A stretch of 24,000 nucleotides of DNA from Metabacillus kandeliae (GTDB lineage: Bacteria > Bacillota > Bacilli > Bacillales > Bacillaceae), in NCBI RefSeq assembly GCF_021166585.1, contig NZ_JAJOZE010000001.1, positions 1,195,304 through 1,219,303 on the forward strand, in the 5' to 3' direction. A model generated the notes under the pieces. That model saw only the letters and a program-made list of their open reading frames with translations, was not told the origin of the DNA and did no database searches. Made by a program: the position numbers and the translations under genes. The first letter of the stretch is position 1; each line of letters begins with the position of its first letter. Of the stretch, positions 1,140 through 17,617 are shown piece after piece.

Positions 1140-1175
1140 TCCTTTCTAAGTCAGGGGTTTTAAAATAAGAGGGAT

Positions 1176-1209: not shown

Positions 1210-1219
1210 TTCTATTATA

Positions 1220-2122
1220 TTAGTGCGTTTTGCATTTATCGTAGATACCTTGTTCCTTCAATACAGAGATAAGTGTTTCTCCCATAACTGATGGAGTTTC
1301 TGCTACTTTAATGCCGCACTCGTTCATTGTTTTAATTTTTTCAGCAGCTGTGCCTTTTCCGCCGGAAATAATCGCGCCTGCATGACCCATGCGCTTTCCT
1401 GGAGGTGCAGTTTGCCCTCCGATAAAGCCTACAACAGGCTTTGTCATGTTGTCACGCACCCATTGTGCTGCTTCTTCTTCAGCTGTACCGCCGATTTCAC
1501 CGATCATAATGACCGCATACGTGTCAGGATCTTCATTAAACGCTTTTAGAACATCAATGAAGTTCGTTCCGTTTACAGGGTCTCCGCCGATTCCGACAGC
1601 TGTAGACTGGCCGACTCCTGACTGTGAAAGCTGATGAACGGCTTCATATGTAAGCGTTCCGGATCGGGAAACAACGCCAACATGGCCTTTTGTATGAATG
1701 TAGCCCGGCATGATGCCGATTTTGCACTCATCAGGCGTAATAACGCCAGGACAGTTCGGTCCTACGAGCCTTGTTTTCTTGCCTTCCATGAAACGCTTAA
1801 CTTTTACCATATCCAGTACTGGAATATGCTCTGTAATGCAAATGACAAGGTCCAGTTCCGCATCAACTGCTTCAATGATCGCATCAGCAGCAAACGGAGC
1901 AGGAACATAAATGACAGATGCTGTAGCACCAGTAGTTTTGACAGCTTCCTGTACTGTATTGAATACAGGAACGCCTTCCACCTCTGTACCGCCTTTGCCC
2001 GGAGTAGTTCCTCCCACAATTTTCGTGCCGTATTCAAGCATTTGCTTTGTGTGGAACAAAGCAGTAGAACCAGTAATACCCTGTACCAATACTTTTGTAT
2101 CTTTGTTAATAAATACGCTCAT
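1220..2122 (-). CDS. sucD: Succinyl-CoA synthetase alpha subunit
   Basis: 300 aa. N-terminus [18 protein letters not shown], catalytic-His region [12 protein letters not shown]. An AGGGGA RBS sits 5 nt upstream. Confidence 0.97.
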
Positions 2123-2140
2123 TTGTGTCCCCTGCCTTTC

Positions 2141-3301: not shown

Positions 3302-3482
3302 TTCCCATCCTCCTAACCTATGTATCGGAAAATTAGACTGCGCTTTCATTTTATAGAATAGTTGATTCCTTGTCTAGCATTCCGCAAAAAATAGTAAAAT
3401 GCTTCTAAGTATTCTCAATTTTCAAAGAAGATCATTTTATTGCGAACATAAAATCTGAACAATATGGAGCCCGCCATTTTCT

Positions 3483-3743
3483 TCACGGCAGGCTGTTTTC
3501 CATTTTATAAATAAACGCAAATATTTCCGCTACAGCCTGATACAGCTCTTCCGGAATTTCCTCTTGTATTTCGAGCTTTTCCAGCAGGGTGACAAGCGAA
3601 GGATCTTCCTGAACCGGCACAGCATGCTCCATGGCCTTTTCAATAATCGCTTCTGCTACAAGCCCTGATCCTTTGGCAGCCACTGCCGGCGCTTTGTCCC
3701 TGCCTTCTGCATATTTCAGCGCCACTGCTTTTTTTAGGTTCAT
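3483..3743 (-). CDS. ylqH: Stand-alone FlhB C-terminal (FlhB-CC / EscU-YscU-like) domain protein
   Basis: 86 aa. AVALKYAEGRDKAPAVAAKGSGLVAEAI...VPV.ED..L...L......IPEELYQAVAEIFAFIY matches my recollection of the Salmonella FlhB segment after the NPTH cleavage site (YAVALQY..APKVVAKG..LA..IR..A....VP....P.LAR.LY....IP..LY.AVAEVLA). Its start overlaps the ylqG stop (ATGA). Confidence 0.85.
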   Translation of the reverse strand: MNLKKAVALKYAEGRDKAPAVAAKGSGLVAEAIIEKAMEHAVPVQEDPSLVTLLEKLEIQEEIPEELYQAVAEIFAFIYKMENSLP

Positions 3744-5281
3744 ATTTTCAAATCCACTCCTTTATGCAGGGATGCTTCTGCTGCTTCAGAAACAGCGCTT
3801 TGAAACGTTTTGACAGCAGAACCGGAAACTATTTTTACATAGGACAGGGAAAGCCCCAGGCTTGTTAAATGCTGTTTCAGTTCATCTGCAAGGACCGCAG
3901 AAACCCGGTCCAGACCAGGCGTATCATTGTGGACGCTGATGGATATAACCTTATTGACAATGGCAATATCTACAGCTGTTTCTTTTAATCTATCAAGCTC
4001 TGCGAAAAGAAGAATGCGGCAAAAAGCCGGATCAATTTTTCCGCCGGTCTTTTTTCTCATCTCCCATTTAACAGTAAGATCGCTTTTTAAAGCTGGATCC
4101 TGGATCGGAATCTGCAGCCATTGCGTCATCAGGGGTCCATTTTCCTGCTGAAGAATGGAGAATCCATTCAGCCTGTGGACAAGCTGATCGGCTTTGTCCT
4201 TTACATCCATGTTTTCCGATATTTTTGCAGCTTCTATCAGGAGCGGCTTCAATGCTCCGCTCTTAGCTGTTTCCGGCTGGATCCCATTTTTCAGCAGGTT
4301 CAGCATCATTGCCTCTTCTTTTCTTCCAAGCAAGCGGGATACATGTGTAAAAAGTTCTTTTACAAGTGTTCCGGACGCCAGGGAAGGCAGGGAAGAATCT
4401 CCCTTTTTTTCGTTTTGTCCGGCTGCTTCTGCCTGTACAGCAGCAGCTGGAAGCTTCACAGCATCTGAAGTGTTTCCTGCAGGCGGAGTGCGTTCGATAT
4501 TCCGGGTGACAGCCGCTTGAGTATTCTCCTGTTTTGGAGCAGCTCCAGGGGCTGCAGGCGCCTCTTGTTCGGCCTTTCTTCCGGCCGTGCTTTCCAATTG
4601 CACAAATTCCGAAGTACTCTTTCTATCGGAATTTTTCATAAAAGCAGCAGGAGTTAAAATTTCTTTAATAGCAGACCGGAGTCTCCCCTCTACATTGCTA
4701 TCGCCTTCACTGTTTGGCAAAGAATGATAGAGATCTGATAATTTTTTCAGCATCGGCTCTTCATCCATCGCTTCCAGCAGCGAACGGAACACGCCTTCCT
4801 CAGCAGGAAGCTGAAGCTTAAACCCCAATTCAACTGCTTTGAATGCATTCTCTCTTTTTTCAGACGGAAGCTTTAAAATCCATGCTGCAGCACTCTTTAC
4901 TTCGTCACTCCTGAGGGGCAGATTGTTTTTAAGAAGCCATTCTGCAATTCTTTCAGAAGAGGGGTTTTTCGGAACTTTCTCTGCGGCAAGTACAGCAGAT
5001 GCCAGTTCTTTATCAGAAGCCTCCCCAGTCAATTCCTTTATCACTTTATAAACAGGTGCTTCGCCCGGCCTTTGCTCTGCGATCTTCAGCAAATATTGAT
5101 GGTTAAGCTTCAGGGGAGATTCTACTTTCGCAGTCAGTGTCTCCTGTCCTATTTGAAGAAGAGCTGTTTGATCGGGGAACAGCTTCAGCACCTTTCCAGG
5201 CAATAGGCCTCCCTTTTCTGAAGGGGTCTGCACAGCCGCGTCTATTCTAATCGGCAGGCGCAAGCTCTCAATCCCATTCAT
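3740..5281 (-). CDS. ylqG: FliK-like (flagellar hook-length-control-like) protein of unknown function
   Basis: 513 aa. Central Ala/Pro/Gln/Glu-rich low-complexity linker (EQEAPAAPGAAPKQENTQAAV...AAAVQAEAAGQNEKK). The C-terminal segment AVDIAIVNKVISISVHNDTPGLDRVSAVLADELKQHLTSLGLSLSYVKIV fits the alternating pattern of the FliK C-terminal (Flg_hook) domain. Position between rnhB and ylqH matches B. subtilis ylqG. Confidence 0.7.
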   Translation of the reverse strand: MNGIESLRLPIRIDAAVQTPSEKGGLLPGKVLKLFPDQTALLQIGQETLTAKVESPLKLNHQYLLKIAEQRPGEAPVYKVIKELTGEASDKELASAVLAAEKVPKNPSSERIAEWLLKNNLPLRSDEVKSAAAWILKLPSEKRENAFKAVELGFKLQLPAEEGVFRSLLEAMDEEPMLKKLSDLYHSLPNSEGDSNVEGRLRSAIKEILTPAAFMKNSDRKSTSEFVQLESTAGRKAEQEAPAAPGAAPKQENTQAAVTRNIERTPPAGNTSDAVKLPAAAVQAEAAGQNEKKGDSSLPSLASGTLVKELFTHVSRLLGRKEEAMMLNLLKNGIQPETAKSGALKPLLIEAAKISENMDVKDKADQLVHRLNGFSILQQENGPLMTQWLQIPIQDPALKSDLTVKWEMRKKTGGKIDPAFCRILLFAELDRLKETAVDIAIVNKVISISVHNDTPGLDRVSAVLADELKQHLTSLGLSLSYVKIVSGSAVKTFQSAVSEAAEASLHKGVDLKI

Positions 5282-5289
5282 CGTGTCAT

Positions 5290-6075
5290 TTAAGCCTCCT
5301 TTTCCTCTGCATACAGCCTGACTGGAGCAAAGCTTCTCCTGTGATGGACAGTAATCCCGTACTGGGCAATGGCAGACAGATGTTCTTTCGTTCCGTAACC
5401 CATATGATTCTGGAAGCCATACTCGGGGTATTTCATCGCGATTTCCTCCATTAGGCGGTCCCGTGTTACCTTTGCCAGTACTGAGGCAGCAGCAATGGAT
5501 ATGCTTCTTGCATCACCTTTTATTAATGATTCCTGCTTCATTTCAGCCGGAAGCTCCATGGCATCTATCAAAAGCATATCCGGCTCCTTATTCAAATGGC
5601 GCACTGCCTGCATCATTGCGCTTTTGGCAGCCTGATAAATATTGATTTCATCGATTTCTCTCTCAGAAACCACACCAATGCCGTATGCTTCTGCTTCCCG
5701 GACAATGATGTCATAAAATTGCTCTCTTTTAGCTTTTGCGAGCTGTTTTGAATCTGTCAGTCCAAAGAGGACAAAATCTTTCGGCAGAATGACAGCAGCT
5801 GCAACAACTGGGCCTGCAATCGGTCCCCTTCCCGCTTCATCAATGCCTGCAATATGCAGGAACCCTTTTTCTCTCGCTTCTTTTTCAAAAACAGACATCT
5901 GTTCAAACTGCTGCTTCCATTTTTGCTCCTGCTTATGCAGCCTGATCCAGCCCTTTGCAAGCTGCTGAACAGCCTTCCGTTCGTCCTTCAGGCAATCCTG
6001 AATAAGAGGATCGCTTATTGAAGAAACATTTTTTAATAATTCTTTCAGTTCTTTGGCTGTTGCCCTGTTTTTCAT
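5290..6075 (-). CDS. rnhB: Ribonuclease HII
   Basis: 261 aa with RNase HII motifs (IAGIDEAGRGPIAGPVVAAAV, DSKQL, IDAMELP, GDARSISIAAASVLAKV). Confidence 0.95.
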   Translation of the reverse strand: MKNRATAKELKELLKNVSSISDPLIQDCLKDERKAVQQLAKGWIRLHKQEQKWKQQFEQMSVFEKEAREKGFLHIAGIDEAGRGPIAGPVVAAAVILPKDFVLFGLTDSKQLAKAKREQFYDIIVREAEAYGIGVVSEREIDEINIYQAAKSAMMQAVRHLNKEPDMLLIDAMELPAEMKQESLIKGDARSISIAAASVLAKVTRDRLMEEIAMKYPEYGFQNHMGYGTKEHLSAIAQYGITVHHRRSFAPVRLYAEEKEA

Positions 6076-6133
6076 GTATTCTACCTACTTTATCGTCAAT
6101 TTCATATGTTTTCTGAAGAGCTCTATTTTAAAG

Positions 6134-6162
6134 CATATATGTATCTATTGCTATTATGTCAA
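6134..6162 (-). promoter_or_regulatory. Putative sigma-A promoter for rnhB-ylqG-ylqH
   Basis: Minus strand: TTGACA (6162-6157), 17 nt, TATATG (6139-6134), about 60 nt upstream of the rnhB ATG. Confidence 0.4.
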
Positions 6163-6219
6163 GATCAGGCAAGGTGAATAAATCCGTGTTAGGTTTAATG
6201 GCTCTCATAAATTTGGCTG

Positions 6220-6346
6220 TTGATTTCCGTTGCAGGCGTCCGCTTTCCGCGGGGCGGGCGGTGAGCCTCCTCTGCGCTTAAGCGCATGCGGGGTCTCACC
6301 TGTCCCGCTGCTCCCGCAGGAGTCTCCCGCCTGGAACGTAGATCAA
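6220..6346. repeat. Family B: 127-bp GC-rich imperfect long-hairpin (palindromic) intergenic element
   Basis: Terminal arms TTGATTTCCGTT / AACGTAGATCAA. Inner pairings CAGGCG/CGCCTG, GCGGGG/TCCCGC, GGTGAGCCTCC/GGGGTCTCACC. Apex is the 14-bp perfect palindrome TGCGCTTAAGCGCA (6273-6286). Its 25-nt left terminus recurs at 18964 and, inverted, at 22428. Confidence 0.75.
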
Positions 6347-6444
6347 TGCATAATAATCAACATTCTTCTTTAATATAGGTTTTTTAAAAGAATGACTACC
6401 AGCTGTCCACTGCAGAAGCAGTTCAGTCAGAAGTCCCACCCACC

Positions 6445-6521: not shown

Positions 6522-7385
6522 TTATATCTCTGCAGAAACAGGCTCCGGAGCTTCAAATGTCAGCGGTCCAAGTTTAACCGTGCGCATCTCACGAAGAATC
6601 AGCTCAGCTGTTTTATCGTAGTCAATATAGCCGCCAGACATCATGCAGCCCCTTCTCTTGCCGATTTCGTCAAAAAGCAGGACAATATCCTCCGGGATTT
6701 CTTCAAGCCCGTAGCGGTCCTTGAGACGCTCTGGGTAGTGCTCCTTTAAAAAGCGGAGAGCAAAAACGGTAATATCCTGGAGATTCAGAATGGTGTCCTT
6801 TATCGCTCCTGTTGCAGCGAGCTTATATCCGACCATTTCGTCCTCGAATTTAGGCCACAGTATTCCCGGTGTATCCAGTAGCTCCATTTCTTTCCCTACC
6901 TTCACCCATTGCTGGGCTTTTGTTACACCAGGCCTGTCTCCTGTCTGGGCAATGTTCTTTTTCGCAAGCCTGTTAATCAGCGTTGATTTTCCAACATTCG
7001 GGATTCCGATAATAAGAGCGCGCACAGCTCTTGGACGGATCCCTTTTGCTGCCATTTTATCAAACTTTTCTTTCAGAATCAGCTTGCAGGCCGGGAGAAT
7101 ATCCTTTATGCCTGTACCTGATTGCGAATCAATCGGAAGAGCGGTAATGCCTTTGTTTTTAAAGTATTTCATCCACTCTTTTGTTACAGTCTTGTCTGCC
7201 ATATCTGCTTTATTTAATAGAACAAGCCGCGGCTTGTTATTTACTATTTCATCAATCATCGGGTTTCTTGACGAAAGCGGCACTCTTGCATCTACCAATT
7301 CCAGAACAATATCTATCAGCTTCAGTTTTTCCGTAACCTGTCTTCTCGCTTTGGCCATATGGCCCGGAAACCATTGAATGGTCAC
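6522..7385 (-). CDS. rbgA: Ribosome biogenesis GTPase A (YlqF)
   Basis: Circularly permuted GTPase (LNKADM ... [14 protein letters not shown] ... [10 protein letters not shown]). A GTG at 7385 gives [13 protein letters not shown], the B. subtilis N-terminus as I recall it, with GAAGGTG 6 nt upstream. The track start (GTG at 7394) lies inside that RBS. Confidence 0.93.
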
Positions 7386-7486
7386 AGTCAACACCTTCTT
7401 TCTGCTGCCGATCCCGGCTTTTTTCTTAATCTTTATTATTTCTCATTTCTTATGACAAAAACTAAGAAAAGAGCCTGAATAGACGT

Positions 7487-9695: not shown

Positions 9696-9796
9696 TGCAA
9701 CCCACCCTTTCCTATTCAAAAGGCTGCTTGTCTTTCATATGGCTGCACAGAGCACCAGAACGGACAGCCGTTCGCTTCTGCTTTAGCATTATTGCC

Positions 9797-9805
9797 ATTT
9801 TAGCA
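9797..9805 (-). promoter_or_regulatory. Putative extended -10 promoter element for ylqD-rimM-trmD
   Basis: Minus strand TGCTAAAAT (TGn + TAAAAT) about 100 nt upstream of ylqD. No convincing -35. It lies between the family A array and ylqD. Confidence 0.35.
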
Positions 9806-9845
9806 TGTTTTTTAACAAAAGGGGCTGCAATAAAACGGAACTGAA

Positions 9846-9966
9846 GAAAAGCGCAAGCCGCTCGTTCAGCCCCGACAAGCGCTGGAGGAAAATCACGAAA
9901 AGTCTGATCTTTGACTTTTGGGGATTTTTCGAAGCGACTCGAGGGGCTAGCGGCTGGAGCTGGACA
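9846..9966. repeat. Family A long-hairpin repeat, unit A1 (121 bp, complete)
   Basis: GAAAAGCGCAAGCCGCTCGTTCAGCCCCGACAAGCGCTGGAGG...CGAAAAGTC-loop-GACTTTTGG...CGAAGCGACTCGAGGGGCTAGCGGCTGGAGCTGGACA. Same consensus as the units at 12552-12923. Confidence 0.85.
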
Positions 9967-9970
9967 ATTA

Positions 9971-10068
9971 GAAAAGCGCAAGCCGCTCGTTTAGCCCCGA
10001 CAAGCGCTGGAGGAAAAAACCGAAAAGTCTTGTTCTTAGACTTTTGGGTTAACGGCTAGAGCTGGATA
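9971..10068. repeat. Family A repeat, unit A2 (98 bp; about 23-bp deletion in the 3' arm)
   Basis: Starts 125 bp after A1 with the same 5' arm and core hairpin (CCGAAAAGTC-ttgttctta-GACTTTTGG). The 3' arm is collapsed to TTAACGGCTAGAGCTGGATA. Confidence 0.8.
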
Positions 10069-10120
10069 CTTCAACTTCTGAAATCAGCTATCTAAGAAGA
10101 GCTATCCATTTTGATCTTAT

Positions 10121-10153
10121 AAAAAAAAGGGGAGGTTTCCCCCGCCCTTTTTT
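10121..10153 (-). terminator. Bidirectional-looking intrinsic terminator after ylqC (khpA)
   Basis: A8, then GGGGAGG-ttt-CCCCCGCCC, then T6. Only a short GGGG/CCCC core pairs cleanly. It starts 5 nt after the khpA stop. Confidence 0.55.
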
Positions 10154-10157
10154 CAAG

Positions 10158-10766: not shown

Positions 10767-12110
10767 TTACATAAAAGGGAATTTCATAGGACCTTTTTTC
10801 TTGCCTTTGGTCATATTTGTCATCTGTTTCATCATTTTTTTCATGTCTTCAAACTGCTTTAAAAGACGGTTGACTTCAGGAACGGTTGTCCCGCTTCCCT
10901 TTGCAATCCGCTTTCTTCTGCCCGCATTGATGATCTCTGGTTTTTCTTTTTCTGTTTTAGTCATCGAACGGATGATGGCCTCCACGTGGCTGATCTGCTT
11001 TTCATCAACCTGAACGTTTTTCAGACCCTTCATCTTGCCTGCTCCAGGAAACATGCCAAGCAGCTCATCAAGCGGCCCCATGCTTTTCACCTGTCCCAGC
11101 TGTTCGAGGAAATCATCAAAGGTAAAGCTCATTGTGCGCATTTTTTGTTCCAGCTCTTTCGCTTTGTCTGCATCGACATTGGCCTGTGCTTTTTCAATAA
11201 GAGTCAGCACATCGCCCATCCCAAGAATTCTGGAAGCCATTCTTTCTGGATGGAAAGGCTCGATTGCATCAAGCTTTTCACCGAGGCCGGCAAATTTAAC
11301 AGGAGTTCCTGTTACCGCACGGATTGACAGAGCTGCACCGCCCCGTGTATCTCCGTCAAGCTTTGTTAAAATGGCTCCTGTGAGGCCGAGCTGTTCATTA
11401 AAGCTCTGCGCAACATTCACAGCATCCTGTCCTGTCATGGCATCGACTACAAGGAAAATCTCGTCAGGGCTTGCCACTTCTTTCACCTGCTTCAATTCGT
11501 CCATTAAATCTTCATCAATATGAAGACGTCCGGCCGTATCGATCAGCACGTAGTCGCAATGCTCTTCCTTTGCCTTTTCAATCGCCTGCCTGGCTATTTC
11601 AACAGGGCTTACCTGGTCGCCAAGAGAAAAAACCGGCATATTTAATTGCTTTCCGAGCGTTTCCAGCTGTTTAATGGCCGCAGGACGGTATATATCCGCT
11701 GCGACAAGCATCGGCTGGCGATTATGCTTTTTGCGGAGCAAATTCGCAAGCTTGCCGGAAGTGGTTGTTTTACCTGCACCTTGCAGACCGACCATCATGA
11801 TGACAGTAGGCGGCCTTTTCGCCGTTGCAATCTGGCTCTGCTCTCCGCCCATCAGCTGGGTGAGTTCATCCTGAACCACCTTGATGACCTGCTGTCCCGG
11901 CGTCAGGCTTTTCATGACTTCCTGGCCAACTGCCCGTTCGCTTACACGCTTGACAAAATCCTTTACCACTTTAAAGTTAACGTCTGCTTCAAGAAGGGCT
12001 AGGCGCACTTCGCGCATCATTTCCTTTACATCCGCTTCGTTTACTTTGCCTTTGCCCCGGATTTTGCTAATGGTATTCTGCAGTCTTTCGGACAATCCTT
12101 CAAATGCCAC
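10767..12110 (-). CDS. ffh: Signal recognition particle protein Ffh
   Basis: 447 aa, GTG start. SRP54 N/G/M domains (GLQGAGKTTTSGKLA, DTAGRL, TKLDGDTRGGAALS, Met-rich C-terminus). Confidence 0.97.
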   Translation of the reverse strand: MAFEGLSERLQNTISKIRGKGKVNEADVKEMMREVRLALLEADVNFKVVKDFVKRVSERAVGQEVMKSLTPGQQVIKVVQDELTQLMGGEQSQIATAKRPPTVIMMVGLQGAGKTTTSGKLANLLRKKHNRQPMLVAADIYRPAAIKQLETLGKQLNMPVFSLGDQVSPVEIARQAIEKAKEEHCDYVLIDTAGRLHIDEDLMDELKQVKEVASPDEIFLVVDAMTGQDAVNVAQSFNEQLGLTGAILTKLDGDTRGGAALSIRAVTGTPVKFAGLGEKLDAIEPFHPERMASRILGMGDVLTLIEKAQANVDADKAKELEQKMRTMSFTFDDFLEQLGQVKSMGPLDELLGMFPGAGKMKGLKNVQVDEKQISHVEAIIRSMTKTEKEKPEIINAGRRKRIAKGSGTTVPEVNRLLKQFEDMKKMMKQMTNMTKGKKKGPMKFPFM

Positions 12111-12124
12111 CCGGCATCGCCTCC

Positions 12125-12457
12125 CTAATCCAATTTCTCAAGCGCTTCAAGCAGAGTCAGCGTCTGAACTTTTTTATCAGATGCTTCAGCAAGAGACTTA
12201 AGCTGTTCTATAAGAAGAGAGCGCTCCTGAAATTTTTGAAGCAATAGAAGCTTTTGCTCATATTGTTCCAGCATTGCTTCCGTCCGTTTTATATTATCAT
12301 AGACAGCCTGCCGGCTAACATTGTATTCTTCAGCAATTTCACCCAGTGAGTAATCGTCCAGATAATAATAAGACATATAGCTTTTTTGCTTCGGGGTGAG
12401 AAGCGACTGATAAAAATCAAAGAGATAATTCATTCTCATTGTCTTTTCCAATATCAA
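12125..12457 (-). CDS. ylxM: YlxM/UPF0122 putative helix-turn-helix protein co-transcribed with ffh
   Basis: 110 aa. [53 protein letters not shown] closely matches my recollection of B. subtilis YlxM. TTG start at 12457, 7 nt after GAGGGGGA. Confidence 0.9.
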
Positions 12458-12531: not shown

Positions 12532-12551
12532 GTTTTTTTCTTGACGACCAA

Positions 12552-12672
12552 GAAAAGCGCAAGCGGTTCGTTCAGCCCCGACAAGCGCTGGAGGAAAATC
12601 CCGAAAAGTCCGGTCTTAGACTTTTTGGGATTTTCCGAAGCGACTCGAGGGGCTAGCCGCTGGAGCTGGACA
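12552..12672. repeat. Family A long-hairpin repeat, unit B1 (121 bp)
   Basis: Same consensus as A1. Core stem GGAAAATCCCGAAAAGTC / GACTTTTTGGGATTTTCC pairs over 18 bp with one G-T. Confidence 0.9.
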
Positions 12673-12676
12673 CACA

Positions 12677-12796
12677 GAAAAGCGGAAGCGGCTCGTTCAG
12701 CCCCGACAAGCGCTGGAGCAAAAATCCGAAAAGTCCGGTTTTGACTTTTTGGATTTTTGTGAAGCGACTCGAGGGGCTAGCCGCTGGAGCTGGACA
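12677..12796. repeat. Family A repeat, unit B2 (120 bp)
   Basis: Starts 125 bp after B1, after a 4-nt linker CACA. Near-identical arms; core AAAAATCCGAAAAGTC / GACTTTTTGGATTTTT. Confidence 0.9.
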
Positions 12797-12800
12797 CACA

Positions 12801-12923
12801 GAAAAGCGGAGGCCGCTCGTTCAGCCCCGACAAGCATAAGACGATCAGCCGGGGAAAGGCGATTTTTCCTTTCCCTGGCTGATCGGCTTATGACCTCGAG
12901 GGGCTAGCGGCAAGAGCTGGACA
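12801..12923. repeat. Family A repeat, unit B3 (123 bp; outer arms conserved, apical module replaced)
   Basis: The outer arms GGCCGCTCGTTCAGCCCCGACAAGC ... CTCGAGGGGCTAGCGGC are retained. The interior is an unrelated 24-bp hairpin, ATAAGACGATCAGCCGGGGAAAGG-cgattttt-CCTTTCCCTGGCTGATCGGCTTAT. Confidence 0.85.
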
Positions 12924-12927
12924 CCAT

Positions 12928-13010
12928 GAAAAGCGCAAGCGGCTCGTTCAGCCCAGATACCCACATACAAGAAAAAACCGAAAGTCCAGTCTCAGACATT
13001 TCGGTTTTTC
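12928..13010. repeat. Family A repeat, unit B4 (degenerate terminal unit whose core hairpin is the ftsY terminator)
   Basis: The first 27 nt (GAAAAGCGCAAGCGGCTCGTTCAGCCC) match the unit 5' arm. At the same register (about +50 nt), CCGAAAGTCCAGTCTCAGACATTTCGG aligns with the core CCGAAAAGTCCGGTCTTAGACTTTTTGG of B1. Confidence 0.7.
12971..13010 (-). terminator. Rho-independent (bidirectional-looking) terminator after ftsY
   Basis: Minus strand: AAAAACCGAAA(T)GTC-tgagactg-GACTTTCGGTTTTTT. The GC core is CCGAAA.GTC/GACTTTCGG with a T6 tail. It ends 8 nt after the ftsY stop. Confidence 0.8.
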
Positions 13011-13017: not shown

Positions 13018-14001
13018 CTAAGCTTTCTCTATAAGATCTGCAAACAGTCCATACACATATTGTTCTGCCTGGAATGGCTGAAGATCGTCCATCTTTTCGC
13101 CGAGGCCGACCAGCTTGACCGGCAGCTTTAATTCATTTCTGATTGCCAGCACAATTCCGCCTTTTGCTGTTCCGTCAAGCTTTGTGAGCACAATGCCCGT
13201 AACATTTGTTACTTCTGAAAATTGCTTTGCCTGTGCCATGGCATTTTGGCCTGTTGTCGCATCAAGGACAAGCAGCACCTCATGCGGAGCGCCAGGCAAT
13301 TCTTTTTCAATGACCCGCTTTACTTTTTCGAGTTCTTTCATCAAATTCACTTTATTCTGAAGTCTACCGGCTGTATCGCACAGGAGAATATCTGCTTTGC
13401 GCGCTTTTGCTGACTGTACAGCATCATACATGACAGCTGCGGGATCTGATCCTGCTGAGTGCTTGATCACGTCCACTCCTGCTCTTTCGCCCCATACTTC
13501 AAGCTGTTCAATCGCACCGGCACGGAAAGTGTCTCCTGCGGCAAGAACGACCTTTTTTCCTTCTGACTTAAATTGATGAGCGAGTTTTCCGATCGTGGTT
13601 GTTTTGCCGACGCCGTTTACTCCTACGAACAAAATGATATTCAGCCTGCCTTCTTCAATGTTAAGCTTTGAAGAATCTTCTTGGCCGCCTTCATAAATCT
13701 CCACCAATTTCTCCGAGATAACATCTCTGACTTCTTCCGGATCCTGAATATTTTTCCGCTTCACTTCATCTCTCAGTTCATCAATCAGAAGCATAACGGT
13801 ATTAAAGCCGACGTCAGCGCTGATCAGCAATTCTTCGAGATCTTCAAAAAACTCTTCGTCTACTTTTCTGTAACGGGAGACAAGATCATTTACTCTTTCA
13901 GAAAAGTTGTTTCTCGTTTTACTGAGACCATCCCGGAATTTAGAAGATACAGAGTCTGTTTGCTTTGTAAGGTTTTCTTTTAATTTTTTAAAAAAGCTCA
14001 T
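13018..14001 (-). CDS. ftsY: Signal recognition particle receptor FtsY
   Basis: 327 aa. SRP GTPase NG domain (GVNGVGKTTTIGKLA, DTAGRLQNK, TKLDGTAKGG). Confidence 0.97.
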   Translation of the reverse strand: MSFFKKLKENLTKQTDSVSSKFRDGLSKTRNNFSERVNDLVSRYRKVDEEFFEDLEELLISADVGFNTVMLLIDELRDEVKRKNIQDPEEVRDVISEKLVEIYEGGQEDSSKLNIEEGRLNIILFVGVNGVGKTTTIGKLAHQFKSEGKKVVLAAGDTFRAGAIEQLEVWGERAGVDVIKHSAGSDPAAVMYDAVQSAKARKADILLCDTAGRLQNKVNLMKELEKVKRVIEKELPGAPHEVLLVLDATTGQNAMAQAKQFSEVTNVTGIVLTKLDGTAKGGIVLAIRNELKLPVKLVGLGEKMDDLQPFQAEQYVYGLFADLIEKA

Positions 14002-14019: not shown

Positions 14020-17000
14020 CTAGGCGTTAATCATTTCTTTCGTTTCTTCCATCCTCACTGATACAAGCTTGGACACACCGGATTCCTGCATGGTGACGCC
14101 GTACAGCACATCAGCTTCCTCCATTGTTCCTTTGCGGTGTGTGATGACAATAAACTGCGTTTCCCGGCTGAACTGCTTTAAATACTGGGCAAATCTGTGA
14201 ACGTTCGCTTCATCGAGTGCTGCTTCCACTTCATCCAGTATACAAAACGGCACAGGCCGTACTTTCAATATGGAGAAAAGCAGCGCAATCGCTGTCAGCG
14301 CTCTTTCTCCCCCTGATAGCAATCCAAGGTTCTGCAGCTTCTTGCCTGGAGGCTGTGCGACTATATCCACGCCGGTATTTAAAAGATCGGCTGGATCAGT
14401 TAATCTGAGCTCTGCCCTTCCTCCTCCAAAAAGCGCTTGAAAAACAGTTTCAAAATGCGAGCGGATTTGGTTGAAGGTTGTAATGAAACGGCGCTTCATT
14501 TCCTCATCCATCTCATCTATCACAAGGTGAAGCGTTTGTTTTGCTTCAAGCAAGTCAGTCTGCTGCCCTGATAAGAACCCGTATCTCTCTGAAACCCGTT
14601 CATACTCATCAATAGCGCCGAGGTTCACAGTGCCAAGCTCCTCAATTGCGCGCTTGATCAGCTTCACTTTTTTCTCTGCATCCTTTGCTGGGATGCTTAA
14701 TGTGTATTTTTCCTTTGCCCCTTCAAATGAAAGCAAATATTCCTCTCTCAAATGATTCAGGCGGTTATCCAGCTCTACATCAAGCCTGTTCAGCCTGACT
14801 TCTTCACTCCGCAGCGCGTCCTGGCGCACTTTCCAGATCCGGTTCAGCTCTTTCAGTTCAAGCTCCATCTCCTCAAGCTTCGCCTGGCATTCCTGCCTGT
14901 CTTTTCTTCCATTTGCGATCAGTTCAATCTTCCTTTGCTTATCTTGCTGCTTTTGAACAGCCGCTTCTTCCAGCTGCTCCTCGCCTGAGGAATTGGACGT
15001 CGCCTCGCTTGCTAAAAATGAAAGATCTTCTTTCGTTTCCGAAAGCCTCGCCGCATTTTCTGCCAGTTCATTAGTCATTCTTTCCATTTTTTCTGTTTGA
15101 TTTTCAAGTGCCTGCTGCTTGCCGGCCAGAATAACTTTCAAATCTGTGATAGCCTGCTGCAATTCCTCTTTTGAACTTTGCTGAGATGTTTTCCAGGCAG
15201 TGCGGGTCTTTATCTCTTCATCTAAGACGCTGAGCTTGGAATGAATATCTTCCGTTTTTTTCTTCAGACCTTGTATTCTTTCCGTCATCTGTGACGCTTC
15301 TTCTTCATAAGCGGATTTCTCCGTATCATAAAGCGCCAGGTGGTTATTGATCGTTTTTTCGTTCCATTCCAGCTCTTTACGCTCAGTCTTTACAGCGTTT
15401 TCTTCATTGCGGAGCTTTTCCCCTTTTTGACGGAGTTCCTCCAGCTGTTTTTCCTGCTGAACAATCTGTTCTTTTAATTTTTTTACATTCCCCTCAAGCT
15501 CTGCTGTTTTCTGTTCCATTTCGGCAAGCTGCTGTGCAGCTGTATCAAGCTCGCGGTTTCTCCCGATCAGAGAATTGTTTTTTTGCTTCACTGCGCCGCC
15601 TGTCATCGATCCGCCTGCATTCACGATGTCGCCTTCGAGTGTGACAAGGCGATAGCGGTAGCTGATCAGCTTTGCCAGCTCATTTGCACCTTTTAAATCA
15701 CTTGTCACAATAACTGTGCCAAGCAGATTGCCGATAATATGGCTGTATTCAGGGCTGTATTTCACTAGCTCTGAGGCGATGCCGATAAATGCAGGATGCG
15801 TTTCAATCAATTTCCGGTCAGAATCAGACAATTTTCTGTTTTTAATAACACTCAGCGGCAAAAAGGTCGCCCTGCCATAGGAATTCTTTTTTAGAAAGGC
15901 AATAGCGCTTCTTGCGGCTCCTTCATTTTCTGTCACGATATGCTGGGCAGAGGCTCCAAGAGATATTTCAATCGCTGTTTCATATTTCTTTTCTGCTGTA
16001 AGGAGCTCTGCAATGGCTCCATGAATGCCTTCCATGCGGTCCCGCACTTTTAATATTTCTTTGACCCCCTGGTAAAACCCGGCATAATCTCCCTGCATGG
16101 CTTCAAGCATTTCCTTTCTTGCTTTTGCCTGCTGAAGAAACTGGTAAGCCTGATAGAGGGCAGTCTCCCTTTTGCGGTATGTGTTCTGGGAGTTTTCAAG
16201 TTTCGCCTGGATATCTCTAAAACTCGCAATATATTCTGAAAGCTGCTGATCAATGACCGAATGCCTGGCATCCAATTTGGTTTTCTGTTCTTCCAGCTGC
16301 TTTCTTTCAGATAAGTATTTCGTATTTGAGTCAGCCATCCTGTTTGTCCGCCTTGTCTGCTGCCTCATTTGATCTTCTATATAAGAGATCTCGTTTCTGG
16401 CAGAGGTCTGGCTGTTTAACAGCTCAAAATACTCGCTTTTCAGCCGCTCAATTTCTTCCTCAATGTTAAAATCGTGGGATTTAAAAGCCGCCTCTTTCTC
16501 CTTCAGCTGTTTCCTTAACTCTTTTACTGCACTTGTTAAATCAGCGAGCTGGGCTTCAAGCTCAATTTTTTCTTTCTTTTGAAGCGCCGTTTTTTCTCCC
16601 AGCTCAATAATCAGCTTTTCAAGCTGCTCTCTGTTCTGCTGGGCATTTTTCTTCCGTTCTTTTAAAACTTCTTTTCTGCCTTCGAGCTTTTCAAGTTCTT
16701 CGCTCGCAAGCAGAAGTGCCTGCTGAAGATCATGAATGGACTCATCCATGTATTGAAGCCTGCTTTTTGTTTCTTGAATCTCCTCTTCTTTTCGCTTGAC
16801 GCCTTCTGAAAATTCCTCGTCCCGAAGCTTTCCTTTTTCAACGCTGTCTGATAGCTCTTCCCATTTTTTATGGAGCTCTTCAATTTCGTGGACGGTAAGC
16901 GCAACCTCGATTTGCTCAAGCTCTTCTTTTTTCTCCAGGTAGTCTTTGGCCATGGATGCCTGGATTTTCAGCGGCTCTACCTGGCCCTGCAGCTCATGCA

Positions 17001-17583
17001 GAATATCTTCTACTCTGTTCAGGTTGTCCTGCGTTTCTGTCAGCTTGGACTCTGCCTTTTTTTTGCGGTTTTTATACTTCAATACGCCTGCCGCTTCTTC
17101 AAAAATGCTTCTTCTTTCTTCCGCTTTGCTGCTGAGGATTTCCTCCACTTTGCCCTGGCTGATGATAGAAAAGGCTTCTTTCCCAAGCCCGGAATCAAGA
17201 AACAGGTCAATAATATCCTTCAGCCTGCATGACTGGCCATTGATATAAAATTCACTGTCACCTGACCGGTAAACCCTTCTCGTTACACCGACTTCGTGAT
17301 AATCAATGGGCAGAAACTGATCACTGTTATCGAGTGTTAATGTAACTTCTGCAATATTTAATCCTTTTCGGGAATCGCTTCCCGCAAAGATGATATCTTC
17401 CATTTTGGCGCCGCGCAGTGATTTGGCAGACTGCTCGCCAAGAACCCACCTGACTGCATCCGTAATATTGCTTTTCCCGCTTCCATTGGGACCCACTACT
17501 GCGGTTACCCCTTGCACAAAATCAACACTCACCCGCTCTGCGAATGATTTAAACCCTAAGATGTCAAGACGTTTGAGGAACAT
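14020..17583 (-). CDS. smc: Chromosome condensation/segregation protein SMC
   Basis: About 1187 aa. Walker A GPNGSGKSN, long coiled coils, hinge (GIHGAIAELL...), signature LSGGERALTAIALLF, Walker B FCILDEVEAALD. The second ATG (17583) gives MFLKRLD with AAGGAGG 6 nt upstream. Confidence 0.97.
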   Translation of the reverse strand: MFLKRLDILGFKSFAERVSVDFVQGVTAVVGPNGSGKSNITDAVRWVLGEQSAKSLRGAKMEDIIFAGSDSRKGLNIAEVTLTLDNSDQFLPIDYHEVGVTRRVYRSGDSEFYINGQSCRLKDIIDLFLDSGLGKEAFSIISQGKVEEILSSKAEERRSIFEEAAGVLKYKNRKKKAESKLTETQDNLNRVEDILHELQGQVEPLKIQASMAKDYLEKKEELEQIEVALTVHEIEELHKKWEELSDSVEKGKLRDEEFSEGVKRKEEEIQETKSRLQYMDESIHDLQQALLLASEELEKLEGRKEVLKERKKNAQQNREQLEKLIIELGEKTALQKKEKIELEAQLADLTSAVKELRKQLKEKEAAFKSHDFNIEEEIERLKSEYFELLNSQTSARNEISYIEDQMRQQTRRTNRMADSNTKYLSERKQLEEQKTKLDARHSVIDQQLSEYIASFRDIQAKLENSQNTYRKRETALYQAYQFLQQAKARKEMLEAMQGDYAGFYQGVKEILKVRDRMEGIHGAIAELLTAEKKYETAIEISLGASAQHIVTENEGAARSAIAFLKKNSYGRATFLPLSVIKNRKLSDSDRKLIETHPAFIGIASELVKYSPEYSHIIGNLLGTVIVTSDLKGANELAKLISYRYRLVTLEGDIVNAGGSMTGGAVKQKNNSLIGRNRELDTAAQQLAEMEQKTAELEGNVKKLKEQIVQQEKQLEELRQKGEKLRNEENAVKTERKELEWNEKTINNHLALYDTEKSAYEEEASQMTERIQGLKKKTEDIHSKLSVLDEEIKTRTAWKTSQQSSKEELQQAITDLKVILAGKQQALENQTEKMERMTNELAENAARLSETKEDLSFLASEATSNSSGEEQLEEAAVQKQQDKQRKIELIANGRKDRQECQAKLEEMELELKELNRIWKVRQDALRSEEVRLNRLDVELDNRLNHLREEYLLSFEGAKEKYTLSIPAKDAEKKVKLIKRAIEELGTVNLGAIDEYERVSERYGFLSGQQTDLLEAKQTLHLVIDEMDEEMKRRFITTFNQIRSHFETVFQALFGGGRAELRLTDPADLLNTGVDIVAQPPGKKLQNLGLLSGGERALTAIALLFSILKVRPVPFCILDEVEAALDEANVHRFAQYLKQFSRETQFIVITHRKGTMEEADVLYGVTMQESGVSKLVSVRMEETKEMINA

Positions 17584-17617
17584 CATGATCCTCCTTACTT
17601 TCTATAAATTCTTAAAT

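What the first reader, a model, noticed from the sequence alone, without database searches (positions are those of the whole stretch)
12552..13010. Four tandem ~125-bp long-hairpin units fill the ftsY-ylxM intergenic region
Units begin at 12552, 12677, 12801 and 12928, a period of 124-127 bp. They are head-to-tail in one orientation, joined by 4-nt linkers (CACA, CACA, CCAT). Folded by hand, each complete unit gives one imperfect hairpin of roughly 55 bp:
- AGCGGCT/AGCCGCT (7 bp), then a 5-nt bulge
- AGCCCC/GGGGCT
- an internal loop, then AGCGCT/AGCGACT
- an internal loop, then a 16-18 bp A/T-rich apical stem, CCGAAAAGTC-loop-GACTTTTTGG

The array makes this gap 560 bp, far more than one terminator plus one promoter needs. 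It is GC-rich relative to the other spacers. It lies exactly between the ftsY terminator and the -35 of the candidate ylxM promoter. I do not recognise the sequence as a named family, though its size and architecture resemble ERIC, BOX and MITE-type elements. It could be a structured RNA, a transcription insulator, a protein or nuclease (for example RNase III) substrate, or a selfish palindromic element.
Basis: seen in the sequence. Interest (0 to 1): 0.7.

Follow-up and report, generated by a model that had tools for sequence, protein, structure and literature searches.

The report
Hairpin repeat array beside ftsY terminator
The ftsY-ylxM gap holds three and a half head-to-tail copies of a ~125-base hairpin-forming repeat that is scattered through many Bacillaceae genera, sits next to gene terminators, and matches no Rfam family or paper searched here; it is most likely a selfish palindromic element like ERIC or REP/BIME.

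Summary
Window 12551-12926 holds three complete ~125-nt units. A fourth, 12927-13010, keeps only the left arm joined to the ftsY terminator hairpin. The genes lie on the minus strand and the units on the plus strand.

The unit ("H") belongs to a dispersed family. One 27-nt left-arm pattern hit 57 loci in Rossellomorea, Fictibacillus, Mesobacillus, Cytobacillus, Lysinibacillus, Ureibacillus, Jeotgalibacillus and others. The window comes from Metabacillus sp. GX 13764.

Across 49 units the long hairpin is 94.7% paired, with 174 compensatory cells against 44 in shuffles. A 5-nt bulge and an internal loop stay invariant, while the apical hairpin varies.

Arrays of one to four units always start in the same phase. 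They usually end in an extra or truncated left arm that faces a native terminator hairpin. Copy number differs between Metabacillus species and between two M. idriensis strains.

There is no Rfam hit, no matching sequence string in papers, no coding signal and no nearby transposase. Orientation shows no bias to gene direction or GC skew.

Best reading: a non-autonomous palindromic repeat of the ERIC/REPIN/BIME type, a new member of a known kind. Its mobilising mechanism and any RNA role remain inferred.

The parts
12551..12675 (+). H unit 1. It is complete: left arm, AAAAGTC-type apical hairpin, right arm and a 4-nt linker.
   Evidence: -62.3 kcal/mol, z -6.2; covariance model 106.6 bits
12676..12799 (+). 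H unit 2. It is complete and belongs to the same subfamily as unit 1 (91-93% identical).
   Evidence: -59.8 kcal/mol; 113.5 bits
12800..12926 (+). H unit 3. It is complete. The arms are conserved, but the centre belongs to the GCATAAG...CTTATGA subfamily that is common in other genera.
   Evidence: I1, 25-nt arms; -69.9 kcal/mol, z -8.5; alignments; 122.3 bits
12927..13010 (+). H unit 4. It is truncated: the left arm (12927-12958) is followed by the ftsY terminator hairpin (12972-13009), and there is no right arm.
   Evidence: left arm, 2 mismatches; nhmmer model positions 1-82; 14 bits, E 0.06; hairpin -14.3 kcal/mol
9845..9969 (+). Second array, unit V1. It is complete and about 91% identical to unit 1 by my reading of the alignment. 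The middle pair of the outer stem is swapped G-C to C-G relative to units 1 and 2.
   Evidence: 106.9 bits
9970..10069 (+). Second array, unit V2. It has a left arm, an apical hairpin and a right arm with an internal deletion.
   Evidence: 47.6 bits
12503..12531 (-). Promoter-like site for ylxM (TTGACA-17-TAGACT). The array starts 21 nt upstream of the -35 hexamer, just beyond an A-tract.
   Evidence: The sequence and the array boundary are conserved in M. idriensis and M. dongyingensis.
13018..14001 (-). ftsY gene. Its stop codon lies 8 nt from the terminator hairpin that ends the array.
   Evidence: the orthologue carries SRP54_N and SRP54 domains
12125..12457 (-). ylxM gene (UPF0122 family)
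   Evidence: 100% identical to Metabacillus sp. GX 13764 YlxM
10121..10155 (-). ylqC terminator hairpin (AAAAAAAAGGGGAGG-TTTC-CCCCGCCCTTTTTT). It lies about 55 nt to the right of the second array.
   Evidence: conserved in Metabacillus sp. RGM 3146
6216..6348 (-). A copy of a second palindromic repeat family, 'X'. It is not part of the array. In other genera X carries an H unit at its apex.
   Evidence: -68.6 kcal/mol, z -5.1

Best explanation
The region is a head-to-tail array of a non-coding, non-autonomous palindromic repeat, here called H. H is about 120 nt plus a 4-nt linker, and it belongs to a family spread over many Bacillaceae genera.

**Anatomy of a unit**
- A conserved left arm: GAAAAGCGgAgGCgGCTCGTTCAGCCCCGACAAGC.
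- A variable, self-complementary centre.
- A conserved right arm: GACCTCGAGGGGCTAGCCGCnnnAGCTGGACA.

**Shown**
- The whole unit folds as one long hairpin, and the stems covary.
- A 5-nt bulge and an asymmetric internal loop are sequence-invariant.
- Arrays always begin in the same phase.
- Arrays usually end in an extra or truncated left arm.
- That end faces a native terminator-type hairpin.
- Copy number changes between species and between strains.
- Units of different subfamilies sit side by side in one array.

**Inferred**
- H is a selfish or neutral element of the ERIC/REPIN/BIME kind.
- It is moved or copied by a factor acting in trans, and that factor recognises the invariant bulge and loop of the folded strand.
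- It lands on the A-tract side of terminator hairpins or next to an existing copy.
- Arrays then expand and contract by slippage or unequal exchange between left arms.

**In this window**
- H is a passenger parked between the ftsY terminator and the ylxM promoter.
- On the sense (minus) strand each unit reads as a long hairpin followed by CUUUUCU.
- Its most probable side effect is therefore to add back-up termination or roadblock hairpins. These would insulate ylxM-ffh from ftsY read-through.
For: **Family and distribution**
- A 27-nt left-arm pattern hits 57 loci in about 12 genera.
- An nhmmer profile finds 113 copies in arrays of one to four units with a ~126-nt period.

**Structure**
- 49 units are 94.7% paired in the hairpin I specified.
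- 174 cells carry changes on both sides, against 44 +/- 5 in shuffles (0 of 500 reach the observed value).
- Slid controls are only 33-54% paired.
- The covariance model scores M. idriensis units that were not in the training set at 50-70 bits, against 34-41 bits for the sequence-only nhmmer profile.
- G-U wobbles outnumber A-C by 104 to 15 cells, and by 19 to 9 pairs. This favours folding of the plus strand.

**Dynamics at the two window sites in related genomes**

| Genome | ftsY-ylxM spacer | ylqC-ylqD spacer |
|---|---|---|
| Window | 560 bp, 3.6 units | 1.8 units |
| M. idriensis, two strains | 459 and 665 bp; 1 against 3 full units | 91 bp, no H |
| M. dongyingensis | 183 bp, a 23-nt left-arm remnant only | about 92 bp, no H |
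| Metabacillus sp. RGM 3146 | 147 bp, no H | similar length to the window's, no H |

**Further signs of turnover**
- The X repeat occurs both empty and carrying H, and H sits in it in both orientations.
- The orthologous sigF-like 3' site holds 1, 2, 3 or 4 units in four species.
- Unit 3 shares its arms with units 1 and 2 but has an unrelated centre. The array is therefore not a simple local duplication.

**Polarity**
- 3'-truncated or extra left arms close about 35 arrays, whereas only 3 arrays have 5'-truncated units.
- The right flank holds the stronger hairpin: mean -14.8 against -8.6 kcal/mol, in 24 of 30 arrays, Wilcoxon p = 1.4e-4.
- Divergent-promoter spacers are rare, 3 of 48.

**Not coding, not a known RNA**
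- No Pfam family is matched.
- No Rfam family is matched.
Against: - No transposase or other candidate mobilising gene lies near the copies examined.
- No autonomous relative was found.
- Target-site duplications are inconsistent. GGTC in X and ATAT in L026 fit a duplication, and several other sites do not.
- The arms are more than 90% conserved across genera. The right arm was not part of the search pattern, yet its unpaired loop is invariant. That much conservation is unusual for junk DNA and would equally fit a cellular function.
- In 16 arrays the unit starts 0-5 nt after a same-strand stop codon. These copies lie inside a 3' UTR in the orientation that the G-U bias favours.
- No transcript data are available.
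Confidence: 0.55

Rival explanations
1. H is a cis-acting structured RNA module of mRNA 3' ends. It would act as a stabiliser against 3' exonucleases, as an RNase III or RNase Y processing site, or as a terminator or insulator, and it would be kept by selection. Mobility would be incidental.
For: - The stems show strong covariation while the unpaired nucleotides are invariant.
- G-U wobbles outnumber A-C by 104 to 15, which indicates that one strand folds.
- 16 arrays begin 0-5 nt after a same-strand stop codon and lie upstream of the native terminator. They are therefore transcribed in the plus orientation.
- On the opposite strand each unit is a hairpin followed by CUUUUCU. Part of unit 3 is flagged as terminator-like.
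Against: - Orientation relative to co-directional neighbours is even, 19 against 17.
- In this window both arrays are antisense to the operon and lie beyond the terminators.
- No promoter of the element's own is present.
- Unit number varies from 0 to 4 at orthologous sites, and between strains. This argues that the units are dispensable.
- Truncated and chimeric units are common.
Confidence: 0.22
2. H is an array of double-stranded DNA binding sites for a host protein. The protein could be a nucleoid-associated or topoisomerase-type factor, as with IHF and gyrase at BIMEs, or a dimeric regulator. The invariant 'loops' would in fact be operator-like palindromes.
For: - The invariant right-arm segment contains two perfect dsDNA palindromes, CCTCGAGG and GGCTAGCC. 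The first lies in the part that is unpaired in the hairpin model (read directly from the alignment).
- The location is intergenic and close to terminators.
- The arms are conserved across genera.
Against: - Compensatory changes along about 45 bp of stem and the G-T against A-C asymmetry are not expected for a duplex binding site.
- The variable centre keeps its self-complementarity while its sequence changes completely.
Confidence: 0.1
3. The array is a purely local tandem duplication (a minisatellite) of the ftsY terminator region, with no wider meaning.
For: - Units 1 and 2 are 91-93% identical.
- Their apical hairpin resembles the ftsY terminator hairpin in unit 4.
Against: - The same unit occurs in a second spacer of the window.
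- It also occurs at 57 or more loci in about 12 genera.
- Unit 3 has a centre typical of other genera.
Confidence: 0.02
4. Arrays are integrated multimers made by a fixed-origin, variable-end copying process. That process could be rolling-circle (HUH-type) synthesis or target-primed synthesis from a ~126-nt circular or RNA intermediate that homes to terminator hairpins.
For: - Arrays start at a constant phase and end at variable points 13-95 nt into the next unit.
- 3'-truncated ends far outnumber 5'-truncated ones, about 35 to 3.
- Arrays keep a constant polarity towards a hairpin.
Against: - No HUH, Rep or reverse-transcriptase gene was seen near the copies examined.
- Orientation shows no bias to the replication strand, 21 against 29 by GC skew.
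- No free-standing multimer contigs turned up: the metagenome scan gave only 4 hits.
- The extra left arms are diverged rather than cleanly cut. Secondary deletion explains that equally well.
Confidence: 0.06

Closest known systems
ERIC / IRU (enterobacterial repetitive intergenic consensus)
   Same: - It is an imperfect palindrome of about 126 bp.
- It lies in intergenic regions near gene ends.
- Its sequence is conserved across several genera.
- Variants exist with different internal segments.
- No transposase is encoded.
   Different: - There is no sequence similarity. The ERIC core primers (recalled from memory) have at least 7 of 22 mismatches, which is chance level.
- The host range is Bacillaceae, not Enterobacteriaceae or Vibrio.
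- H forms phased head-to-tail arrays and has a fixed polarity towards terminator hairpins.
REP / BIME-2 clusters and REPINs (with RAYT transposases)
   Same: - Two inverted ~35-nt arms fold into a hairpin, as a REP doublet does.
- Whole hairpin units are reiterated in tandem at gene 3' ends.
- Copy number varies between strains.
   Different: - There is no conserved GTAG or CGTC tag. GTAG occurs at the right-arm end in about 11 of 49 units.
- The arms are not themselves small palindromes.
- No RAYT-like gene was seen within 8 kb of the copies examined.
- The spacer between the arms is long (50-57 nt) and is itself a variable hairpin.
BOX and SPRITE elements of Streptococcus pneumoniae
   Same: - The build is modular, with conserved ends and a variable or reiterated middle.
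- The predicted hairpins are stable.
- SPRITE is terminator-like, and H on one strand is a hairpin followed by a U-tract.
   Different: - In BOX only the internal boxB module is reiterated. In H the whole unit is repeated.
- There is no sequence similarity to the BOX A core.
- The hosts are different.
Correia / NEMIS (Neisseria) and bcr1 (Bacillus cereus group) MITEs
   Same: - They are non-coding elements of 100-160 bp with inverted ends.
- They are co-transcribed with neighbouring genes.
- Compensatory changes keep a hairpin (bcr1; PMC3184786).
- Correia RNA is an RNase III substrate.
   Different: - Those families have clear target-site duplications (TA, or 5 bp for bcr1). For H the duplications are inconsistent.
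- bcr1 is restricted to the B. cereus group (PMC3184786), and the pattern scan returned no locus titled as a B. cereus-group species.
- Neither family is known for phased tandem arrays that end in a half unit.
Integron attC sites
   Same: - They are an imperfect hairpin folded from one strand.
- They have conserved basal arms, extrahelical bases, an unpaired central spacer and a variable terminal structure.
   Different: - No RYYYAAC or GTTRRRY core sites are present (GTTCAGC and GCTGAAC fail at the fourth base).
- There are no cassettes between units.
- No integrase lies nearby.

Membership tests
Rfam structured RNA families (release 15) | A match to any of the 4227 covariance models | tested here: not met
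   No hit at gathering thresholds in the window or in five related loci. At E <= 10 only sub-threshold eukaryotic miRNA-hairpin and lncRNA matches appear.
REP / BIME / REPIN | A conserved GTAG or CGTC tetranucleotide at one end of each palindromic unit | tested here: not met
   The positions before AGCTGGA vary (GGAG, GTAG, GCAG, AGAG and others). GTAG occurs in about 11 of 49 units.
REP / BIME / REPIN | Short inverted units (20-40 nt) pair up to form a hairpin, and hairpins are clustered in tandem | tested here: inconclusive
   The ~35-nt arms are inverted repeats and whole hairpins are tandemly reiterated. However, the arms are not REP-type mini-palindromes, and the 50-57-nt centre is much longer than a REPIN spacer.
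REP / BIME / REPIN | An associated RAYT (Y1 transposase) gene flanked by the repeats | tested here: inconclusive
   The ORFs between or beside inverted copies in L045 and L011 are ordinary genes (LysR-type regulator, glutamate dehydrogenase, HIT protein). Whole genomes could not be scanned.
ERIC / IRU | The ERIC consensus core sequence | tested here: not met
   The best matches to the ERIC1R and ERIC2 primer cores (recalled from memory) have at least 6-7 of 22 mismatches. That is no better in the arrays than elsewhere in the window.
ERIC / IRU | An imperfect palindrome of about 127 bp in intergenic regions of several genera | tested here: met
   Units are 118-122 nt plus a linker, lie in intergenic regions and occur in about 12 genera.
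Classical MITE | Terminal inverted repeats | tested here: met
   The left and right arms pair over P1-P3 in 96-100% of cells.
Classical MITE | Target-site duplication of fixed length | tested here: inconclusive
   Comparing filled with empty X sites gives GGTC on both sides for one orientation. For the other orientation the phase is ambiguous. ATAT in L026 and ATA in L040 are possible duplications, and none is evident in L023, L055 or L057.
Classical MITE | A related autonomous IS with the same ends | not testable with these tools
   None was seen in the 8-kb loci. ISfinder and Dfam are not available here.
IS200/IS605-type single-strand elements (PATE-like) | Orientation bias with respect to the replication fork (active strand on the lagging-strand template) | tested here: not met
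   The H plus strand lies on the G-rich strand in 21 strand-specific locus sets and on the C-rich strand in 29, with 7 ambiguous.
Integron attC | R''/R' core sites (RYYYAAC / GTTRRRY), with gene cassettes between sites | tested here: not met
   The unit sequence has no such cores at the base of the hairpin. Units are contiguous, separated by 4 nt.
Intrinsic terminator / SPRITE-like terminator element | A GC-rich stem directly followed by a U-tract on the transcribed strand | tested here: inconclusive
   On the minus strand every unit ends ...GCGCTTTTCT, but only a 3-bp helix (P1) adjoins the U-tract. The consensus scan flags only unit 3's left-arm region and the small apical stems.
CRISPR array | Short repeats separated by unique spacers of similar length | tested here: not met
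   Units abut one another. The 'variable' part is itself a hairpin that recurs in other units and other genomes.

The most novel reading that the evidence does not exclude
H may be more than an ERIC-like passenger. It could be a hairpin-homing element with its own kind of propagation. Copying would start at a fixed site, the 5' edge of the left arm, and stop at variable points. Landing would always be on the A-tract side of a terminator hairpin or of a previous copy, and would need no nearby transposase. That would make it a terminator-targeting, rolling-circle or template-switch type of mobile DNA not yet described in Firmicutes.

Alternatively, the invariant bulge (CGTTC) and internal loop (GACAAG / ACCTCGA) could be the docking site of a conserved host factor. 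H would then be a bona fide 3'-end RNA or DNA module shared by many Bacillaceae.
Probability: 0.15. Interest if true: 0.7.

Novelty: new member of a known kind. Interest (0 to 1): 0.45.

Why it matters
- Outside the B. cereus group (bcr1-18), the reviews consulted here list no interspersed repeat families for Bacillaceae (PMC3184786, PMC3733652). H, and the X element it nests in, would add a multi-genus family with unusually clean structural signals.
- It causes practical problems. It breaks short-read assemblies and creates spurious ORFs. It also changes the length of spacers next to essential genes (ftsY, ffh, rpsP operon) between strains, so it could serve as a typing marker.
- Its strict polarity towards terminator hairpins, together with its sequence-invariant unpaired nucleotides, gives a concrete handle for finding whatever protein moves or binds such elements. 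That question is still open for ERIC-type repeats.
- If it does reinforce termination, it would be an example of mobile DNA supplying insulators between operons.

Tried and rejected
- **Rfam.** Gathering thresholds on the window, permissive thresholds on the region, and gathering thresholds on five related loci gave nothing relevant.
- **Literature.**
  - Six arm-sequence strings on both strands matched no paper.
  - Keyword searches for Bacillaceae repeats and for RAYT/REPIN gave nothing pertinent.
  - The reviews of small bacterial repeats list only the bcr families for Bacillus.
- **Phage or plasmid origin.** There was no phage hit and only one plasmid or chromid hit, in Cytobacillus spongiae.
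- **Coding potential.** The 67-aa ORF across units 1-2 and the 89-aa ORF over the second array have no Pfam family. The unit period is not a multiple of three.
- **Linked transposase.** ORFs between and beside copies in L045 and L011 are ordinary genes.
- **Replication-strand bias.** There is none.
- **Bias to gene direction.** There is none, 19 against 17.
- **GAAAAG as a duplicated target rather than part of the element.** This fits the sigF-like site in L038 and L043. It fails for H inserted into X in the reverse orientation, where the empty site has no GAAAAG.
- **Inversion as the origin of the two H orientations inside X.** Rejected. X keeps its own central motif in place beside the reversed H, so these are separate insertions 8 nt apart.
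- **RNAalifold's own consensus.** It mis-paired the basal arms because of alignment gaps, so I specified the hairpin by hand and tested it.
- **Exact-protein look-up of FtsY.** Not on record.
- **Metagenome scan.** It gave only 4 contigs, which I did not examine.
- **ERIC/BOX cores, CRISPR and attC.** All rejected (and direct reading of the sequence).
Full report

Yes.

- Tandem Repeats Finder reports a period-124 array at 12551-12835, score 479.
- The repeat finder places four in-register copies at 12551, 12676, 12800 and 12927, with spacings of 125, 124 and 127.
- The sequence shows the junctions GGACA-CACA-GAAAAG (twice) and GGACA-CCAT-GAAAAG.
- Two 29-30-nt cores of the unit never occur in shuffled versions of the window.
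- Each complete unit folds into a single long imperfect hairpin of -59.8 to -69.9 kcal/mol. The z-scores are -6.2 to -8.5, and none of 200 shuffles folds as well.
- The ORF list puts all the genes on the minus strand: ftsY at 13018-14001, ylxM at 12125-12457, ffh at 10767-12110 and smc at 14020-17586 (translations). The gap is 560 bp, and the units are antisense to the operon.
- GC is 0.52-0.55 in the array, against 0.35-0.49 nearby.
- A promoter-like site (TTGACA-17-TAGACT, minus strand, 12531-12503) lies 21 nt from the first unit.

- The A/T-rich apical stem belongs only to units 1 and 2. Unit 3 has a different stem with 25-nt arms.
- Unit 4 is a left arm joined to the ftsY terminator hairpin at 12972-13009. 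The covariance model gives it only 14 bits.
- The array is not alone. A second array of 1.8 units lies on the same strand at 9845-10069, between ylqC and ylqD.

**2. A dispersed family, not a local oddity**

- A degenerate 27-nt pattern that fits all six left arms in the window was scanned against one genome per prokaryotic species. It hit 57 loci in Rossellomorea, Fictibacillus, Mesobacillus, Cytobacillus, Lysinibacillus, Ureibacillus, Jeotgalibacillus, Robertmurraya, Pseudoneobacillus, Mangrovibacillus and unnamed Bacillus species.
- A profile built from 49 full units found 113 copies in those loci. They are typically in head-to-tail arrays of one to four units with a ~126-nt period.
- The window itself comes from Metabacillus sp. 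GX 13764, whose YlxM is 100% identical.
- The family is essentially chromosomal. There was no phage hit and one hit on a 690-kb Cytobacillus replicon. A metagenome scan gave only four contigs.

**3. Anatomy and the structure test**

The alignment shows three parts:

- a conserved left arm, GAAAAGCGgAgGCgGCTCGTTCAGCCCCGACAAGC;
- a conserved right arm, GACCTCGAGGGGCTAGCCGCnnnAGCTGGA. It was not part of the search pattern, so its conservation is an unbiased observation;
- a centre that changes completely between subfamilies yet stays self-complementary.

I wrote the long hairpin as six stem segments (36 pairs, which the pair-counting tool groups into five helices) and counted pairs on the MAFFT alignment.

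| Measure | Observed | Control |
|---|---|---|
| Cells paired | 94.7% | 83.1% in shuffles |
| Cells with changes on both sides | 174 | 44 +/- 5 in shuffles |
| Pairs with at least one double change | 20 of 36 | 13.3 in shuffles |
| Shuffles reaching the observed values | 0 of 500 | |
| Pairing with partners slid by 1-3 columns | | 33-54% |

- The window itself contains a compensatory swap. Units 1 and 2 have AGCGGCT/AGCCGCT, while V1 has AGCCGCT/AGCGGCT and unit 3 the same C-G swap (GGCCGCT/AGCGGC, outermost pair not formed).
- The 5-nt bulge (CGTTC) and the asymmetric internal loop (GACAAG opposite ACCTCGA) are invariant.
- G-U wobbles outnumber A-C by 104 to 15 cells, and occur at 19 pairs against 9. 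The strand written here as plus is therefore the one whose folding is preserved. Much of this signal is inherited rather than independent.
- A covariance model built from the alignment recovers the four full window units at 107-122 bits and V2 at 48 bits. It finds nothing else in the window.
- The model scores M. idriensis units, which were not in the training set, at 50-70 bits. The sequence-only nhmmer profile gives them 34-41 bits.

**4. Context rules**

*Position relative to genes.* I called flanking ORFs naively, as stretches of at least 110 codons.

| H relative to its two neighbours | Arrays |
|---|---|
| Co-oriented with both | 19 |
| Antisense to both (as in the window) | 17 |
| Between convergent genes | 9 |
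| Between divergent genes | 3 |

- H therefore avoids promoter-only spacers but has no preferred orientation to transcription.
- It has no preferred orientation to the replication strand either: 21 against 29 by GC skew.

*A local polarity.*

- Arrays start at model position 1-3 almost without exception.
- About 35 arrays end in a 3'-truncated unit or in an extra, diverged left arm. Only three arrays have 5'-truncated units.
- In the 30 arrays outside the X context, the strongest hairpin within ~100 nt to the right of the array averages -14.8 kcal/mol. To the left it averages -8.6 kcal/mol. The right side is stronger in 24 of 30 (Wilcoxon p = 1.4e-4).
- I then dropped the cases where that hairpin could be H's own centre. 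By my count from the same table, the right side is still stronger in 17 of 21.
- Many of these right-hand hairpins are textbook bidirectional terminators.
- Sixteen arrays begin 0-5 nt after the stop codon of a same-strand gene. The genes differ (MreB-like, a sigF-like sigma factor and others). In these cases the array sits between the stop codon and the terminator.
- In the window the mirror arrangement holds. The order is promoter, array, extra left arm, terminator, then the ftsY stop on the other strand. The second array likewise has the ylqC terminator on its right.

**5. Dynamics**

Orthologous spacers were fetched through YlxM homologues and read directly.

| Genome | ftsY-ylxM spacer | ylqC-ylqD spacer |
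|---|---|---|
| Window (Metabacillus sp. GX 13764) | 560 bp, 3.6 units | 1.8 units |
| M. idriensis, two strains | 459 and 665 bp; one against three full units of a divergent subfamily | 91 bp, no H |
| M. dongyingensis | 183 bp; only a 23-nt left-arm remnant beside its native terminator | about 92 bp, no H |
| Metabacillus sp. RGM 3146 | 147 bp, no H | similar length to the window's, no H |

- The promoter-side boundary of the ftsY-ylxM array is the same in the window, M. idriensis and M. dongyingensis. It lies just upstream of AAGAAAAAAACTTGACA.
- A sigF-like 3' site carries 1, 2, 3 or 4 units in four species.
- Within the window array, unit 3 shares its arms with units 1 and 2 but carries the centre typical of Rossellomorea-type copies. 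V1 in the other spacer is about 91% identical to unit 1 by my reading of the alignment. The array is therefore a mosaic, not a simple local duplication.
- A short-read contig from another sample that encodes the same YlxM and YlqC (the latter matched exactly) starts and ends inside the two arrays.

**6. Nesting in a second repeat**

- In Rossellomorea and related genomes, H sits at the apex of a larger palindromic repeat, X (GTTGATT...AATCAAC).
- X occurs both with and without H.
- The empty apex reads GAAAAGC-TGGACA, which is the two H termini fused.
- In one class of filled sites, H plus a 4-nt linker follows that motif.
- In the other class, H is inserted 8 nt further on and in the opposite orientation, flanked by GGTC on both sides.
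- These are separate insertions, not an inversion, because X keeps its own motif in place.
- The window carries one empty X copy at 6216-6348 on the minus strand.
- X has no Rfam match either.

**7. What it most likely is and does**

Shown:

- a conserved single-strand hairpin with invariant unpaired nucleotides;
- phased arrays with a half unit at one end;
- a fixed polarity towards terminator hairpins;
- gain, loss and copy-number change at orthologous sites;
- no coding capacity;
- no linked transposase in the loci examined.

Inferred:

- H is a non-autonomous palindromic repeat of the ERIC/REPIN/BIME kind.
- It is propagated in trans by a factor that reads the bulge and loop of the folded strand.
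- It lands on the A-tract side of a terminator or next to an earlier copy.
- Arrays then breathe by slippage or unequal exchange between left arms.

On the sense (minus) strand of this window every unit is a long hairpin followed by CUUUUCU. The array therefore probably acts, incidentally, as a run of back-up terminators or roadblocks between ftsY and the ylxM promoter. The consensus scan supports this only weakly. I put 0.55 on this reading.

**8. Rivals**

| Reading | Confidence | Main points |
|---|---|---|
| Selected 3'-end RNA module | 0.22 | For: covariation, the G-U bias and the 16 copies lying in 3' UTRs. Against: even orientation, unit number varying 0-4 between strains, and the window's own copies lying antisense beyond the terminators. 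|
| Duplex protein-binding site | 0.10 | For: the dsDNA palindromes CCTCGAGG and GGCTAGCC in the invariant right arm. Against: stem covariation. |
| Fixed-origin, variable-end copying | 0.06 | For: the asymmetry of array ends. Against: no enzyme or intermediate to support it. |
| Purely local minisatellite | 0.02 | Refuted. |

**9. Comparison with known families**

- ERIC is closest in form: about 126 bp, an imperfect palindrome, conserved across genera. There is no sequence similarity and the hosts differ.
- BIME-2 and REPIN clusters are closest in array architecture. However, the GTAG/CGTC tag is absent and no RAYT gene was seen.
- The attC-like anatomy is only an analogy, because the core sites and cassettes are missing.
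- No orientation bias of the IS200/IS605 kind exists.
- The reviews consulted list only the bcr families for Bacillus.
- ISfinder and Dfam could not be consulted.
- The 190-bp repeat of B. subtilis that I recall from the 1997 genome paper could not be compared here. That lead remains untested.

**10. Verdict**

This is a genuine, well-structured and apparently unnamed repeat family. It is a new member of a known kind. It is moderately interesting for its clean covariation, its invariant loops and its polarity towards terminators. Its mechanism of spread and any cellular role remain open.

Noticed in passing
window 9845-10069 (+): A second H array lies between ylqC and ylqD, 2.5 kb from the reported one and on the same strand. 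It has one full unit and one unit with an internally deleted right arm.
   Followed up: yes
window 6216-6348 (-): A copy of a different palindromic repeat family, 'X' (...GGAGACTCCTGCGGGAGCAGCGGGACAGGTGAGACCCCGC...CCGCGGAAAGCGGACGCCTGCAACGGAAATCAAC). It lies downstream of the terminator of the gene at 6522-7394. It folds at -68.6 kcal/mol (z -5.1) and has no Rfam match. Its apex contains the fused termini of H.
   Followed up: partly
L003, L005, L013, L015, L017, L031, L032, L035, L041, L042, L051, L056: In Rossellomorea and related genomes, H is nested at the apex of X in either orientation. X also occurs empty in the same genomes. Near-identical X-H composites sit on different contigs of one genome (Bacillus sp. 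NTK074B), which suggests recent amplification of the composite.
   Followed up: partly
L058 (Logan SRR30650715 contig, 2535 bp): A short-read contig encoding the same YlxM-Ffh-RpsP-YlqC block (YlqC matched exactly; YlxM is on record from Logan) begins about 99 nt upstream of ylxM and ends about 137 nt past ylqC. Both ends fall inside the two H arrays, so the repeat breaks assemblies.
   Followed up: partly
L061 3528-4020 against L062 3322-4020; L063 3804-4020: Two M. idriensis assemblies differ at the ftsY-ylxM spacer, with one against three full units of a divergent H subfamily (459 against 665 bp). M. dongyingensis keeps only a 23-nt left-arm remnant next to its native ftsY terminator.
   Followed up: yes
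right arm of every unit, e.g. window 12642-12660: The invariant right-arm segment CCTCGAGGGGCTAGCC holds two perfect double-strand palindromes: CCTCGAGG, which contains an XhoI site, and GGCTAGCC, which contains an NheI site. The left arm carries GGCT-CGTTC-AGCC, the second palindrome split by the bulge, so it can form a small local hairpin as an alternative fold.
   Followed up: no
L024 5576-5693, L029 2581-2701, L038 2830-2947: These are chimeric units. A canonical left arm is combined with the right arm of another subfamily (CTCGAGCCTCTAAGCCCT), which breaks helix P3. This suggests recombination between neighbouring units of different subfamilies.
   Followed up: no
window 12541-12744 (+) and 9712-9981 (-): ORFs of 67 and 89 codons run through the repeat units. 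They match no Pfam family and are almost certainly spurious, but automatic annotation could call them as hypothetical proteins.
   Followed up: yes
L047 (Rossellomorea sp. FM04394), 251-6245: Three separate H arrays with nine hits in all lie within 6 kb, all on the same strand. This echoes the two same-strand arrays 2.5 kb apart in the window and may indicate local spread. I did not test it statistically.
   Followed up: no
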